From Octopus sinensis (taxonomy: Eukaryota): a stretch of 64,000 bases of DNA. Both the position numbers and the translations under genes were made by a program. The notes beneath the pieces are model-generated. The model searched no databases. It was given only the letters and a program-made list of their open reading frames with translations, and had not been told where the DNA came from. Within the stretch, counting starts at the first letter, position 1; each line of letters starts with the position of its first letter. The stretch lies in contig NC_043026.1 in NCBI RefSeq assembly GCF_006345805.1, positions 11,635,579 through 11,699,578 on the forward strand, in the 5' to 3' direction. Below are positions 1-6,500 of the stretch, in pieces.

Positions 1-311
1 ATATATATATGTATGTATATATATATATAATTGAGTATATATATATATATATATGTATGTATATATATATATTCTATATGTAAGGTATATATATATATAT
101 ATATATATGTTGTATATATATATATATATTATAGTATGTATATATATATATATCTATTATGTATGTATAAAATATATATATATGTGTATGTATCTATATA
201 TCTGTGTATTGTATATAATATATATCATATATATATATAATAGATGTATATATATGTATTTATATGTATATATATATATAGTATATATATATATGTCTAT
301 ATATAGATATG

Positions 312-342
<31 letters not shown>

Positions 343-360
343 TTATCTATATATATCTGT
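1..360. repeat. Degenerate (TA)n/(TATG)n microsatellite
   Basis: Near-continuous TA dinucleotide tract; similar tracts at 1140-1620, 3247-3450 and 4815-5025. Confidence 0.95.
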
Positions 361-628
361 AATTTAATAAGGGTGAGAGAATAAGATACTAATTAATAGA
401 TATCTATTCAACACCAAGTGGCCCTAGTGCTCGCGAAACTGGATTATTATAATATTTTTATAATATATTATATATTTTTACAAATAAATATAAGAGAGTG
501 GCACTATATGGCTCACTCTAGCACCGTTAATCAAAAGTTTCAACACAAAAAATTACTGTTTCCCATGAAGTCAGTACGATTGTTAGCTAACCCGGACAGG
601 GCAAATAAAAAATAACAAAAATACAGAT

Positions 629-710
629 TATTGGGACAATTGTTTCGCTATTAATGAATTAAATGTAATTTTACTTACAAAAAAATCCACTTTGAGCTCG
701 TCAGCCAACA
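629..710 (-). ncRNA. Minimal type I hammerhead ribozyme motif
   Basis: Minus strand reads UGUUGG-CUGACGA-GCU...AGC-GAAA-C-AAUU-G-UC-CCAAUA: intact core, 6-bp stem I, 3-bp stem II with long loop, 1-bp stem III with palindromic loop, GUC cleavage triplet. Confidence 0.7.
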
Positions 711-897
711 ACATCTGGATGAAATCCACTCAATCACACGCCAGTTTTACCATAACGATAAATACGCGTGTGGTTCAATTGATACATCCTGTTAGCTGGG
801 GAATTTGAATTATAACGTCGGATGTAATCAATGAACCACACGCGTATTATCGTTATGTAAAATCTGGCGTGTGATTGAGTGGATTTCATCCAGATAG

Positions 898-979
898 TTT
901 TGGCTGACGAGCTACAAGTGGATTTTTTTGTAAGTAAATTACATTTAATTCATTAATAGCGAAACAATTGTGCCCAAAA
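898..979 (+). ncRNA. Second hammerhead motif (mirror copy; cleavage triplet altered to GUG-C)
   Basis: ttttgg-ctgacga-gct...agc-gaaa-caattg-tgc-ccaaaa. Confidence 0.55.
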
Positions 980-1238
980 TAATCTGTATTTTTGTGATTT
1001 TTTTATTTGCCCTGTCCGTGTGAGATAACATCGTACTGACTTTCATGGGAAAAATGTATTTTGTGTGTTGAAACCTTTTGGTTAACTGGTGCTAGAGTGA
1101 GCCATATAGTGACCACTCTCTATATTTATTGTAGAATATAATGTATAGTATATATATGTATTATATATATAGTGTATATATATATATGTATATATATATA
1201 TATGTATATATATATATGTATATATATATATATTATAT

Positions 1239-1284
<46 letters not shown>

Positions 1285-1624
1285 GTATATATATATAGAT
1301 GTATATATGATATATATATATGTATATTATATATATGTATATATATATATATTATATGTATATATATATAATATGTCTATTATATATATATATGTATATA
1401 TATATACATATATGTATATATATATATAATTATATGATTATATATATATATACATATATTATATATCTTAATTATGGATATATATTATATATGTATATTA
1501 TATATATATATGTATATAGTATGTATACTATGTAATTATTATGGTATATATATCTTATATATGTAGAATATATATATAATATATATATATATATACATAT
1601 ATATCTATACATACCCTATATAGA

Positions 1625-3246
1625 CAGTTGTGGCCAAAATGTCTGAACGGCATTGTTTCGTCCGAAACAGTCGATATAATTTTTATCAAAGTTGTTTATA
1701 TTCTATAATTTTCACAGACATAAATACGATATAATTGTTATTGCCTGACTTTGTGTAATTTGAGAGGATAATACAAAAGTTATGATGATTAGTGATTTAC
1801 TGCAAAACCCATGGCGGCCAAAATGATCAGAACGGTTGCTTTTTACTCAGTGGTTTAGTATATGTAACTGGCAACTCTAATGTTTTTGAATTTGTTACGT
1901 GACGGTTCGTTTACTAAACATTAGTAAGAATATTTGCAGTGTATGTAATTTGTTAATATAATGCCACTTACTCCGTTACCAGTTCGTCAGCAGATTATTA
2001 AGCTTCGAAGGAGGATAATGTAAGTATTGGATCTATTGCAAAGATTGTTAACAAGTTAAAAAGTGTTGTACACGGTATTCTTAAGGTCTACGATGATTGT
2101 GGTTCGTGTGAAGCAGGAAAGTTTACAGGTAGGCCAAGAAAAACGACCAAGAGAGAAGATCATGTATGGTAAAGTTGGTTTTAAAAAGGACAGATTTAAA
2201 ACTGCTGCTGCTGTTTCTCGGAAAATGAGCATGATTGAAGAAAACTTTATCTCGAAAAAACTGTGCCTCGTCCGTTTAGTTGAACATGACCTACAAGCAA
2301 GAGCACCTGAGTGAAGCCACTGATCAGCTCCAGAATAAAAGTGTCGTCTTACCTTTGCAAACCGAACATGTGTTATGATCTCAAGAAAAATGGCAAAACG
2401 GTGCATTTCAGTGATGAATCTAAGTTTATGCTATTTGGCTCAGATGGGAAAAGGTACGTTCGTAGAAAGTAGGTGAAAATTGTTGCCTAAATGCCTTAAG
2501 ACTAGTGTTAAATTCGGTGGAGGAAGTGTCATGGCTTGGGGAATGATATCTGGAGATGGTGTGGTGGGGGCCTTTGTTGCGATTACATGGAAGGAAATGC
2601 AGGAGTTTATAAACAACTTGTAAAAGATCATGTCTTGCCTGTGCTGAGAAATTCAACTAAGCGACTACCCATATTCATGCAGGACAATGCCCCATGTCAC
2701 AAGGCTAATGTGGTCATGAACTTCCTCAAGGCTGAAAAGGTTATTGTTATGGATTGGCCAGCTCAAAGCCCAGATCTCAATCCTATTGAAAATGTGGAAT
2801 ATTCTAGGAGAACGTTCGAAAGCCAAAAATCCTAAAACAACTGGGCAATTATGGAATGCCCTTCAGGAAGAATGGAATAAGATCACCCAGCAAGAAATTG
2901 AAAATTTAATTTCCTCATGCAGTCGAAGATGTCAGAGTGTGATTGAAGCTAAAGGGCTTCACACTAAATATTAAATAATTCCAGTATTCTCTGTCATTTT
3001 TTATTATTTTGTTATTTTTTCAAGCGTTCTGATCATTTTGGCCGCCATGGGTTTTGCAGTAAATCACTAAATCATCCATAAATTTTGTATTATCCTCTCA
3101 AATGACACCAAAATCCTAGATTATAACAATTGATATTGTATTTATTGTCTGTGAAAATTATAGAATATAAAACAACTTTGATAAAAACTTATACCTACTT
3201 TTCTGACGAAAACAATGCCGTTCTGAACATTTTGGCCGCGCAACTG
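1625..3246 (+). mobile_element. Full-length Tc1/mariner DNA transposon (DD34E, IR/DR-type long TIRs) inserted in a (TA)n tract
   Basis: Termini cagttg...caactg; TIRs ~1625-1835 / ~3023-3246, each with inner and outer ggccaaaatg..gaacg direct repeats; right end followed by TA. Confidence 0.92.
1961..2974 (+). pseudogene. Tc1 transposase, frameshifted
   Basis: Fragments across frames: FSDESKF, FMQDNAPCH...WPAQSPDLNPIEN (34 residues between D and E), C-terminal RRCQSVIEAKGLHTKY*. Confidence 0.9.
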
Positions 3247-3256
3247 TATATGTATG

Positions 3257-3625: not shown

Positions 3626-4029
3626 ATATAGGCACATTCGGATTATACGGTAGGAAGCAATATTTTCTAGTTTGCATATTTATTGCTAACGCCTTAATTG
3701 TACAGCAGTATCATCACTATTAAATCTCAGAGCGAGATGTAAACAGTAACCGCTCGACAATGTAATGTATAAAAGCCATCTCAATTTGGCTAACCACAAA
3801 GTGGGGGAGTTACTGTAGCTTTTTAGCCCCACGAGCAGTTACTGTTTACATCTCGCTCTGAGATTTCATAATGCTTACAGTCAGTTTTTCGAAATCAGTG
3901 GCAGACGTCACTAGAAAAACTCTTATATATTTGCAAAGCAGGCCTTGTCGTTCATTGTGACCTGGTGGTTACCGCCTGTTGATAAGAGACAATAATCTCG
4001 AAACCGGTCCGGTGCGTATCACTCAGGCT

Positions 4030-4670
4030 TGCGAGGAAGGGATGGCCTCCCTTGCAAAGCACGCGGAATTCTGTTCTTGATTCGACGGTCATTCGGAATG
4101 CTCACAGCAGCCATATTCCTACCACTCTATGTCACGCTGGTGAGACCCATATTGGAATACGGGATTCAAGCCTCTTCTCCTTATCTCCTCAAAGACATAC
4201 AGCATCTCGAAAGAGTCCATAAGCTGGCTACCCCGCATGGTTCATGGTCTCAAAACTTGTCCTATGAAGAAAGGCTGAGGACGCTCGACTTTATTCTCTT
4301 GAAAAACGCCGCCGCGTGGAGATCTCATTCTCGCCCGCAACATCATAAGCGGAAAAGTGAACCTCTCGAAAGAGCTGTTCTTCACTCCTGCTCCAGAGCG
4401 TCGGCTGCGGGGGTCATTCCGAAAAGCTCTACCTGCGACGATTTCATCTCAATCGAAGGAGAGGAGCTTTCTCCGTCCGGGTTGCGGATCCCGTGGAACA
4501 GCTGCCAGACGAGATGGTGAAGATGCCGACGACCGCTTTGTTCAAGTCTCCCTTGACCTCAAGTGGCCTGAACTCTTTACATGAACACCACCCTGTACTT
4601 AACTCCATGTCCCCCTACTTGGCCTTGCTATTTGCTTTTGAGCCAAATTAACTAACTAACTAACTAACTA
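4030..4670 (+). mobile_element. CR1/L2-group LINE 3' fragment with (CTAA)n tail
   Basis: LYVTLVRPILEYG...DIQHLERV...LSYEERLRTL and ...FSVRVADPWN-type RT C-terminal motifs; ends aattaactaactaactaactaa. Confidence 0.85.
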
Positions 4671-6141: not shown

Positions 6142-6500
6142 TCATCATCATTGTTCGACCATGGTCGAGACAATGGAATTTACTATGTTACGCCAGACTT
6201 CACGGTCCATCATAGCATTACGGAGGTCCTGTTGCTGGATGCCTGTATCCCTGGAGATTACATCAGGGTAGGAGAGTGTGCGACCTCTGGTATTGCGAGT
6301 AGATGCTTCCAGAGGAGAGAGTAGAAATTACTTCTTTTTCAGCTCTACACATGTCCAGCAAACTGGACTCTCCTACCCTTCACAAGAGATGATACAGGTG
6401 GTAGTTTCCCATATATTTGCATTTTGGTTGGATGGCGCTTCCACGAGAGATTTTGAGCTCTCATAAGGAGGCGAGTGTAGGTTCCATCCAACCGCCTCTC
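6142..6500 (-). mobile_element. RTE-type LINE 3' fragment with (GAT)n tail
   Basis: Minus strand encodes RRVQFAGH...SYPDVISRDTG...NAMMDREVWRNIV; absent from the paralogous site near 46350. Confidence 0.75.

What the first reader, a model, noticed from the sequence alone, without database searches (positions are those of the whole stretch)
471..1140. Palindrome carrying a mirrored pair of minimal hammerhead ribozymes with an unusually long stem-II loop
Seen: each arm contains CUGACGA...GAAA-C-AAUU-G-UC flanked by a 6-bp stem I (intact on the minus strand at 710-629, predicted cut after position 635; mirror copy at 898-979). Stem II is GCU/AGC closing a ~45-nt AU-rich loop. Known: minimal hammerheads with 1-bp palindromic stem III occur in Penelope-like element pseudo-LTRs and retrozymes and cleave as dimers, and Penelope pLTRs are often inverted. 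Inference: this is a non-autonomous self-cleaving retroelement sitting between (TA)n tracts. Transcription from either side would give a ribozyme-bearing RNA that can also fold into ~320 bp of dsRNA (ADAR/Dicer substrate).
Basis: partly seen in the sequence, partly recalled or inferred. Interest (0 to 1): 0.75.

Follow-up and report, generated by a model that had tools for sequence, protein, structure and literature searches.

The report
Two-armed hammerhead retrozyme insertion
This palindrome is one back-to-back insertion of a young, protein-free 535-base repeat that carries a hammerhead-ribozyme motif and is scattered through the genome; the two arms of such insertions end at two different fixed points, which suggests that a Penelope-type retrotransposon enzyme likely copies one RNA from both ends of the cut target DNA.

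Summary
The palindrome and both hammerhead motifs are real. They are one copy of a 535-bp non-coding tandem unit, a non-LTR retrozyme: 2,062 exact core matches genome-wide against 3 for the control, inserted in (TA)n tracts. The element spans about 360-1135. Across subfamilies about 75% identical, the core is nearly invariant except N7, and stem I covaries. The '45-nt loop' is a long, interrupted stem II. Here the two ribozymes lie on opposite strands, so a read-through RNA is predicted to bury them in dsRNA; this copy is likely dead.

The interest lies in the insertion footprint. 21 of 32 young insertions in an unselected sample are head-to-head. In 31 of 31 such insertions one arm ends at site A and the other at site B, about 127 nt apart. 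The arms differ by 0.45% against 1.8% between insertions. This suggests both target strands are primed on one RNA by a Penelope-type enzyme.

Cleavage, circles and the partner element are untested or not found. The window's own junction was not confirmed in other runs. The scan already noted this pattern on other DNA of this genome.

The parts
1..356 (.). Left (TA)n target tract
   Evidence: TRF array 1-356. G30/C7 skew has the same sign as in the right tract, so the flanks are not mirrored.
360..789 (-). Left arm: partial monomer (unit positions about 1/7-445), RNA sense on the minus strand, outer 3' end at site A against the TA tract
   Evidence: 93% identical to natural monomer L030:1370-1904.
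360..481 (-). 'Tail': the about 127-nt stretch between sites A and B, present on this arm only
   Evidence: The family ends precisely at A (33 of 43 ends) or B (29 of 39 ends).
624..717 (-). Type I hammerhead motif with intact core (CUGACGA 704-698, GAAA 646-643, GUC with predicted cut after 635) and extended stem II
   Evidence: model R1 85.5 bits (R1 was built with this sequence in it).
789..790 (.). Head-to-head (5'-to-5') inversion junction, unit position 445 joined to 476, 1-nt overlap
   Evidence: Not bridged in other runs.
790..820 (+).
790..1135 (+). Right arm: partial monomer (unit positions 476 to about 128), RNA sense on the plus strand, outer 3' end at or within about 10 nt of site B (1130-1140)
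   Evidence: The exact end is blurred by noisy sequence.
891..986 (+). Second hammerhead motif; an extra G972 breaks the cleavage triplet as assembled (probable sequence error)
1136..1613 (.). Right (TA)n target tract
   Evidence: TRF.

Best explanation
The palindrome is one head-to-head insertion of a 535-bp, non-coding, hammerhead-bearing tandem repeat family, likely a non-LTR retrozyme pasted into (TA)n by a borrowed Penelope-like RT/GIY-YIG enzyme. SHOWN: family size, youth and (TA)n targets; a conserved, covarying type I hammerhead fold; arrays of 1 to about 17 units; 5'-to-5' polarity; two precise outer ends A and B, always one per arm; arms more alike than separate insertions; scattered junctions with short overlaps. 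INFERRED: (1) Head-to-tail arrays are transcribed, and neighbouring ribozymes likely pair through the palindrome ACAAUUGU, cut at GUC and release monomers that are likely ligated into circles. (2) A Penelope-type enzyme, possibly a dimer, would nick both strands of a TA tract and prime one strand at A and the other at B on the same RNA. (3) Each cDNA would run a variable distance, through the ribozyme cut site and often several laps, which needs a circle or an uncut multimer. (4) The two cDNA 3' ends would anneal by 1-5 nt of microhomology, giving the palindrome. This copy has less than one unit per arm and only one sense ribozyme per strand, so it is predicted to be a dead end whose read-through RNA would form about 330 bp of dsRNA. 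My odds: real genomic feature 0.93; retrozyme family 0.95; Penelope-type mobilisation 0.85; two-site priming on one RNA 0.6; circular template 0.5.
For: Family: 2,062 exact 14-mer core matches against 3 for the control; best copies 95-100% identical, tandem period 535; 20 of 24 listed public runs hold the unit, from 11 studies. Ribozyme, 45 aligned copies: C3 44, U4 43, G5 44, A6 44, G8 45, A9 45, G12 44, A13 45, A14 44, A15.1 45, U16.1 44; H17 is C or U in 45; N7 takes all four bases. 6 of 11 stem-I pairs change on both sides; 95.5% of cells pair, against 28-42% when partners are slid. RNAalifold finds stem I and the apical hairpin unaided. 127 of 140 young units have an intact core. The monomer folds with z=-6.8. 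Polarity: 19 of 19 mixed clusters among 43 on C1 have 3' ends outward. 21 of 32 young insertions in the unselected C1 sample are inverted; 31 of 31 independent inverted insertions pair A with B, p about 5e-10 if each end chose at 0.5. Arms differ at 0.45% of sites against 1.77% between insertions, and are closer in 30 of 31 insertions. Junction offsets do not depart from uniform (35 junctions, KS p=0.42). Overlaps of >=3 nt occur in 9 of 19 clean junctions against 7% by chance. Only 2 of 112 inner ends fall within 280-295, around the cut site. In 2 of 2 head-to-head insertions of a protein-coding Penelope-like family in the same genome, a tail of about 35 nt is on one arm only, and both arms end in (TA)n. 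PMC11167929: a Penelope-like protein cuts and extends both strands of AT-rich DNA, starts at two internal RNA sites that define the tail, and is predicted to be a dimer.
Against: No cleavage, circle or transcript was shown. No Penelope-like element sharing sequence with the unit was found in 60 fetched stretches, only 150 of 5,029 GIY-YIG candidates having been scored. PMC11167929 saw no difference in start site between the two target strands in vitro, and found ribozyme cutting unnecessary. The 127-nt tail is far longer than the 30-40 bp published for Penelope elements. 83 of 98 rare substitutions covered by both arms are on one arm only (later mutation and assembly error can do this). Gene conversion could also make arms alike. 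The monomer's lowest-energy fold masks the core (5.6 kcal/mol below the active fold), and the double hammerhead (-303.4) is only 3 kcal/mol better than two singles and 8 above the dimer's minimum. The oldest subfamily often has a mismatch at 10.1-11.1 (19 of 45 copies unpaired). Covariation rests on about 4-5 related subfamilies, not 45 independent events. Sites A and B were defined from the same data. The window's junction is unconfirmed.
Confidence: 0.6

Rival explanations
1. Self-priming: one strand (an antisense RNA or the cDNA) folds back and is copied into the second arm, and the endonuclease then trims the outer ends to A and B (model of PMC3846280; PMC8557442 ascribes the tail to endonuclease resolution).
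For: It explains near-identical arms, microhomology and head-to-head polarity. 19 of 31 insertions are geometrically compatible.
Against: 12 of 31 insertions, this one included, have each arm holding sequence the other lacks, so they need extra trimming. Among the 19 compatible ones the would-be template is the A arm in 12 and the B arm in 7 (my tally). Junction offsets show no significant bias to short loops.
Confidence: 0.2
2. Same two-site priming, but the template is an uncut linear multimeric transcript of an array, not a circle; the ribozyme is then incidental to insertion. This concerns the template only and does not compete with the priming model.
For: PMC11167929 found unprocessed RNA to be the main substrate. 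Arrays of up to about 17 units exist as possible donors. The core is predicted to be masked in the monomer fold.
Against: The core and stem I stay constrained across subfamilies about 75% identical. In L136 the two arms differ by 0.08% while the insertion is 2.6% from other insertions, as laps round one circle would give; a homogeneous donor array would too.
Confidence: 0.35
3. Two separate RNAs, perhaps held together by the hammerhead dimer palindrome, each prime one target end.
For: The palindrome ACAAUUGU is intact in 42 of 45 copies, and junction offsets look independent.
Against: Arms are closer to each other than to other insertions in 30 of 31 cases, and 0-0.3% apart in insertions 2-4% from the family. 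Two free RNAs would not explain 31 of 31 A+B pairs.
Confidence: 0.07
4. The palindrome in this window is a fold-back read or assembly artefact.
For: The sequence is indel-rich, the copy may lie at a contig end, and its junction is not bridged in other runs.
Against: Each arm has sequence the other lacks; the TA flanks keep one strand skew (p=4e-7); the ends follow the family's A+B rule; polarity is always 5'-to-5'; a contig of run X7 shows another such inversion as a loose end.
Confidence: 0.05
5. The hairpin was kept as a regulatory dsRNA (ADAR or Dicer substrate) for the zinc-finger gene cluster nearby.
For: About 330 bp of dsRNA is predicted (-452 kcal/mol); zinc-finger repeat arrays lie within 6 kb.
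Against: About two thirds of young insertions have this shape, so it needs no local selection. The A>G signal is not significant.
Confidence: 0.05

Closest known systems
Metazoan non-LTR retrozymes (PMC7229834, passages seen; bioRxiv 10.64898/2026.07.22.740005, parts 1-3 of 5 read)
   Same: Non-coding, low-GC tandem units, one type I hammerhead per unit, short stem III with a palindromic loop, dispersed arrays, highly paired monomer fold, proposed dependence on Penelope-like elements.
   Different: The unit is 535 nt (170-400 nt in PMC7229834; 51-972 bp in the preprint). Stem II encloses about 50 nt, and Rfam misses the motif. Two-armed insertions with fixed ends are not described in what I read ('inverted' occurs 0 times in PMC7229834). 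No pLTR homologue was found; circles are untested.
Penelope-like element pseudo-LTRs with inverted 5' copies and a 'tail' (PMC3846280 and PMC8557442, passages; PMC4209133, parts 1-2 of 4)
   Same: Head-to-head inverted arms, tail on one end only, (TA)n targets, variable 5' truncation, and hammerhead pairs on opposite strands 100-700 bp apart (already noted in PMC4209133).
   Different: There is no RT/GIY-YIG ORF, and the tail is about 127 nt rather than 30-40 bp. The one-end rule is described there as optional or frequent; here it holds in 31 of 31.
Poseidon element of the green anole, in vitro (PMC11167929, parts 1-2 of 4)
   Same: Two internal start sites that define a tail; AT-rich target; both strands cut and extended.
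   Different: The sites are 30-40 nt apart there, no strand preference was seen, and the element is autonomous.
LINE-1 twin priming (recalled; no call)
   Same: Both target strands prime on one RNA and the cDNAs join by microhomology.
   Different: In L1 the arms do not overlap and the second site is variable; here both sites are fixed and the arms overlap or run several units.

Membership tests
Type I hammerhead ribozyme | Core CUGANGA / GAAA / UH with only N7 free | tested here: met
   43-45 of 45 copies at each of the 11 fixed core positions; N7 takes four bases; H17 is C or U. The window's right arm reads GUG as assembled.
Type I hammerhead ribozyme | Three helices around the core, helix I open-ended | tested here: met
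   Stem I 96% paired with 6 of 11 pairs changed on both sides; stem II 88%; stem III 2 bp, 99%.
Type I hammerhead ribozyme | Match to an Rfam hammerhead model | tested here: not met
   No hit at gathering level or at E<=10 / E<=0.5; probably because of the long stem II (inference).
Type I hammerhead ribozyme | Self-cleavage at the NUH site | not testable with these tools
   Needs in vitro transcription. Folding predicts a masked monomer.
Metazoan non-LTR retrozyme | Head-to-tail units, each with a hammerhead | tested here: met
   Period 535; arrays of 1 to about 17 units; 127 of 140 young units have an intact core. The window copy itself has no complete unit.
Metazoan non-LTR retrozyme | Low GC, dispersed, no LTR structure | tested here: met
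   GC 172 of 535; copies on many contigs; ends abut (TA)n directly.
Metazoan non-LTR retrozyme | No protein-coding ORF in the unit | tested here: met
   A 535-nt unit cannot hold an RT; no open frame of 250 aa or more overlapped the copies in L088 and L089. Short ORFs were not listed.
Metazoan non-LTR retrozyme | Expressed as linear and circular monomer RNA | not testable with these tools
   Only contigs were offered, and none of the listed holders is on record as RNA.
Penelope-like element (autonomous) | ORF with RT and GIY-YIG endonuclease | tested here: not met
   None is part of, or homologously linked to, the unit. It works like a Penelope end but is not an autonomous member.
Penelope-like element (autonomous) | Inverted 5' copy, one-sided tail, microsatellite target | tested here: met
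   the same footprint in 2 of 2 head-to-head coding elements.
Penelope-like element (autonomous) | Target-site duplication | tested here: inconclusive
   Not discernible inside (TA)n.

The most novel reading that the evidence does not exclude
Each head-to-head insertion records a Penelope-type RT dimer sitting on a single ribozyme-made RNA circle, with one subunit priming each strand of the cut TA target at its own fixed site (A or B) and both running laps round the circle. This would explain Penelope inverted repeats, the one-sided tail and retrozyme tandem arrays in one mechanism, against the published self-priming model, and it would run on a long-helix-II hammerhead variant that Rfam misses.
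Probability: 0.4. Interest if true: 0.72.

Novelty: new member of a known kind. Interest (0 to 1): 0.5.

Why it matters
The element class is known, so the ribozyme itself would not surprise a specialist. How Penelope-like elements build tandem and inverted insertions is named as an open problem in PMC8557442, and how retrozymes are mobilised is open in the 2026 preprint. This family gives many young insertions with nucleotide-precise ends. It turns the published remark that a tail is 'often on one end' into a strict rule (31 of 31), and supplies a small defined RNA with two predicted start sites for an in vitro test. It also indicates that searches relying on Rfam will miss long-stem-II hammerheads in this lineage.

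Tried and rejected
Rfam scans found no hammerhead match for this motif; hits were AT-repeat noise, apart from a different weak hammerhead at 3961-4032.

Partner search: a Pfam accession I recalled is not in the library. The GIY-YIG family search scored 150 of 5,029 candidates. I examined 25 returned loci and 35 larger stretches, many overlapping. Copies of the unit beside Penelope-like ORFs (L088, L089, L095, L100, L175) are separated from them by TA tracts or other sequence. The apparent similarity in L178 was low-complexity AT sequence. Three Penelope 3' ends scored no more than about 2 SD above shuffles.

A 12-mer search for the window's junction was too short to inform (184 matches against 116 for the control).

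Public runs: no RNA holder listed. One run guessed to be RNA holds a 154-nt contig of the unit; this is not counted as evidence. No contig bridged the window's junction, and one run laid nothing. The opposite-strand joint 777/832 may reflect the unit's own internal hairpin and was not counted.

ADAR signature: not significant (p=0.08).

Rows dropped before the 31-of-31 count (40 inverted rows): 4 cut by a locus edge, 3 old copies under 90% identity, and 2 local duplicates. One of the old copies (L137) parsed as A+A, but its second arm runs into another element and its end is unresolved. Microhomology: of 35 junctions 8 were unresolved, 7 gave negative values and 1 was a duplicate, leaving 19. 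The variant analysis kept insertions of at least 94% identity, which excludes the window copy (93%).

One search crashed and was redone as without partition functions. The Pfam scan of neighbouring window genes failed on stop codons and was not repeated.

Literature searches listed no paper on cephalopod retrozymes or on a two-site, two-strand model for Penelope insertions. The library lacks most subscription papers, I opened no supplements, and the preprint's supplements are closed.

Full report
Observation. The inverted repeat is present: 445-789 against 820-1169, with 320 identities, 13 mismatches and 29 gap positions. Rfam does not detect them. The window copy is noisy: against a family copy its arms show 23 and 19 gap positions but only 7 and 5 mismatches. 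The right arm has an extra base in the cleavage triplet that none of the other 90 distinct ribozyme sequences shows.

The family. A search of the window's own genome (G000, 2.7 Gb) gave 564 candidates, of which 40 were scored. It is likely an octopus-like genome; that is an inference from its size, the C2H2 arrays and earlier notes. The loci show a 535-bp unit in head-to-tail arrays, 95-100% identical to the natural monomer L030:1370-1904. A 14-mer of the ribozyme has 2,062 exact matches against 3 for the reversed control. Older subfamilies at about 75-92% identity also exist. Twenty of 24 listed public runs, from 11 studies, hold the unit, some of which may be the assembly's own source. In unit coordinates the window holds a left arm 7-445 and an inverted right arm 476 to about 128. 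The element therefore starts near 360, and the 'spacer' belongs to the right arm.

The ribozyme. I aligned 45 of the 91 distinct ribozyme sequences, leaving out truncated ones and many near-duplicates. Each fixed core position is kept in 43-45 of 45 copies, while N7 takes all four bases. Stem I is about 11 bp with an internal loop, and 6 of 11 pairs change on both sides; sliding the partners drops pairing from 95.5% to 28-42%. These changes come from a handful of subfamilies, so they count as few independent events. Stem II begins with 4 bp and continues to an apical hairpin with the loop GUAAAA in 43 of 45 copies, so it is not an open loop. Stem III is 2 bp inside the palindrome ACAAUUGU (42 of 45 copies). 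The isolated motif prefers a fold that masks the core, by 5.6 kcal/mol. In a natural dimer the double hammerhead is 3 kcal/mol better than two singles but 8 above the minimum. This fits weak, dimer- or protein-assisted cutting as reported in PMC4209133, PMC7229834 and PMC11167929, but activity is untested. The whole monomer folds far better than shuffles (z=-6.8). In the window the two motifs lie on opposite strands; a read-through RNA from either side is predicted to pair 10 of 10 core bases with the other arm. With less than one unit per arm, this copy cannot yield a monomer.

The insertion footprint. Among the first 100 core matches on contig C1, 19 of 43 clusters hold both orientations, and all 19 have 3' ends facing outward. 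I fetched the clusters not already covered and mapped all arms. In that unselected sample, 21 of 32 young insertions are inverted. Outer ends are precise: 33 of 43 ends at site A stop at the same base, and 29 of 39 at site B, about 127 nt away; almost all run straight into (TA)n. After removing edge-cut, old and duplicated rows, 31 of 31 inverted insertions pair one A end with one B end; the window copy is one of them. Inner ends are scattered, with 2 of 112 near the cut site, so the template was not a cut linear monomer. Junction offsets fit a uniform distribution (p=0.42). Arms differ by 0.45% against 1.77% between insertions. Clean junctions overlap by 3 nt or more in 9 of 19 cases against 7% by chance. 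Against a simple reading, 83 of 98 rare substitutions covered by both arms lie on one arm only.

Artefact test. Each arm of the window copy holds sequence the other lacks, the TA flanks keep the same G-over-C skew, and the ends obey the family rule. A contig of run X7 shows a different inversion junction of the same polarity as a loose end. The window's own junction, however, was not bridged by any contig laid, and the copy may lie at a contig end. I put artefact at about 5%.

The likely enzyme. The genome holds young Penelope-like elements with RT and C-terminal GIY-YIG domains that end in (TA)n. A second such family shows a tail of about 35 nt on one arm only, in 2 of 2 head-to-head insertions. 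None shares sequence with the unit, so the partner is unidentified. PMC11167929 shows that such a protein cuts and extends both strands of AT-rich DNA and starts at two internal sites that define the tail, though without strand preference in vitro.

Mechanism and rivals. The simplest account is two-site priming of both target strands on one RNA, circular or multimeric, followed by microhomology joining (0.6). Self-priming with later trimming, proposed in PMC3846280, is the main rival (0.2). It needs extra trimming in 12 of 31 insertions, and in the other 19 the template would be the A arm in 12 and the B arm in 7. Whether the template is a circle is about even.

Comparison with what is known. 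The family meets every non-LTR retrozyme feature I could test and fails the test for an autonomous Penelope element. Opposite-strand hammerhead pairs (PMC4209133), inverted 5' copies and one-sided tails (PMC3846280, PMC8557442) are published for Penelope elements. My seven searches listed no paper on cephalopod retrozymes or on this two-site model, within a library that lacks most subscription journals. Of the papers, I read parts 1-3 of 5 of the 2026 preprint, parts 1-2 of 4 of PMC11167929 and of PMC4209133, and passages of PMC8557442, PMC7229834 and PMC3846280; I saw no supplements. Earlier notes of this scan describe the same two-ended pattern in other retrozyme families of this genome, and a 534-nt family that may be this one. 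Sequence look-ups returned nothing. My reading was noted before those look-ups, and the notes are not counted as support.

Verdict. A real, probably inert copy of a new member of a known class. Its value lies in a strict, testable insertion rule. Interest 0.5.

Noticed in passing
window 1623-3247: Tc1/mariner-type DNA transposon with terminal inverted repeats of about 70 bp and a frameshifted transposase; the family name rests on recalled motifs in the translation.
   Followed up: partly
window 3961-4032 (+): A second, small hammerhead-like motif with a U3-A8 core variant and an ACCGGU palindrome; Rfam HH9 31 bits, below the 52-bit threshold. It is followed by what looks like a LINE 3' end at about 4100-4670 (recalled motif).
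   Followed up: partly
window 6889-48098: Eight 84-bp tandem arrays typical of C2H2 zinc-finger genes (the label is recalled from the repeat unit).
   Followed up: no
L086:1174-4874; L090; L096: Young (about 99% identical) Penelope-like family with a 479-aa upstream frame overlapping a 781-aa RT+GIY-YIG frame, a CX4CXXC motif before the endonuclease and (TA)n at the 3' end; the overlap recurs in L092 and L093, so a frameshift or a two-ORF layout is possible.
   Followed up: partly
L176, L182, L179: Another Penelope-like family whose two head-to-head insertions (L176, L182) carry a tail of about 35 nt on one arm only; L179 shows an end with the tail.
   Followed up: partly
L093:6344-7170; L089:851-925 and 6168-6247; L165:5167: Other hammerhead elements with long stem II and palindromic stem III, the L093 one also head-to-head, so the long-helix variant is not limited to this family.
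   Followed up: no
L100:5080-5115; L174:5132; L170, L175, L178 3' regions: Minimal hammerheads, several with the U3-A8 core, in the 3' regions of protein-coding Penelope-like elements.
   Followed up: no
unit positions about 1-60 and 128-185 (window 360-420 and 482-540): Sites A and B each follow a predicted hairpin and a similar pyrimidine-rich motif ending in CUUAU, kept in older subfamilies: candidate recognition modules.
   Followed up: partly
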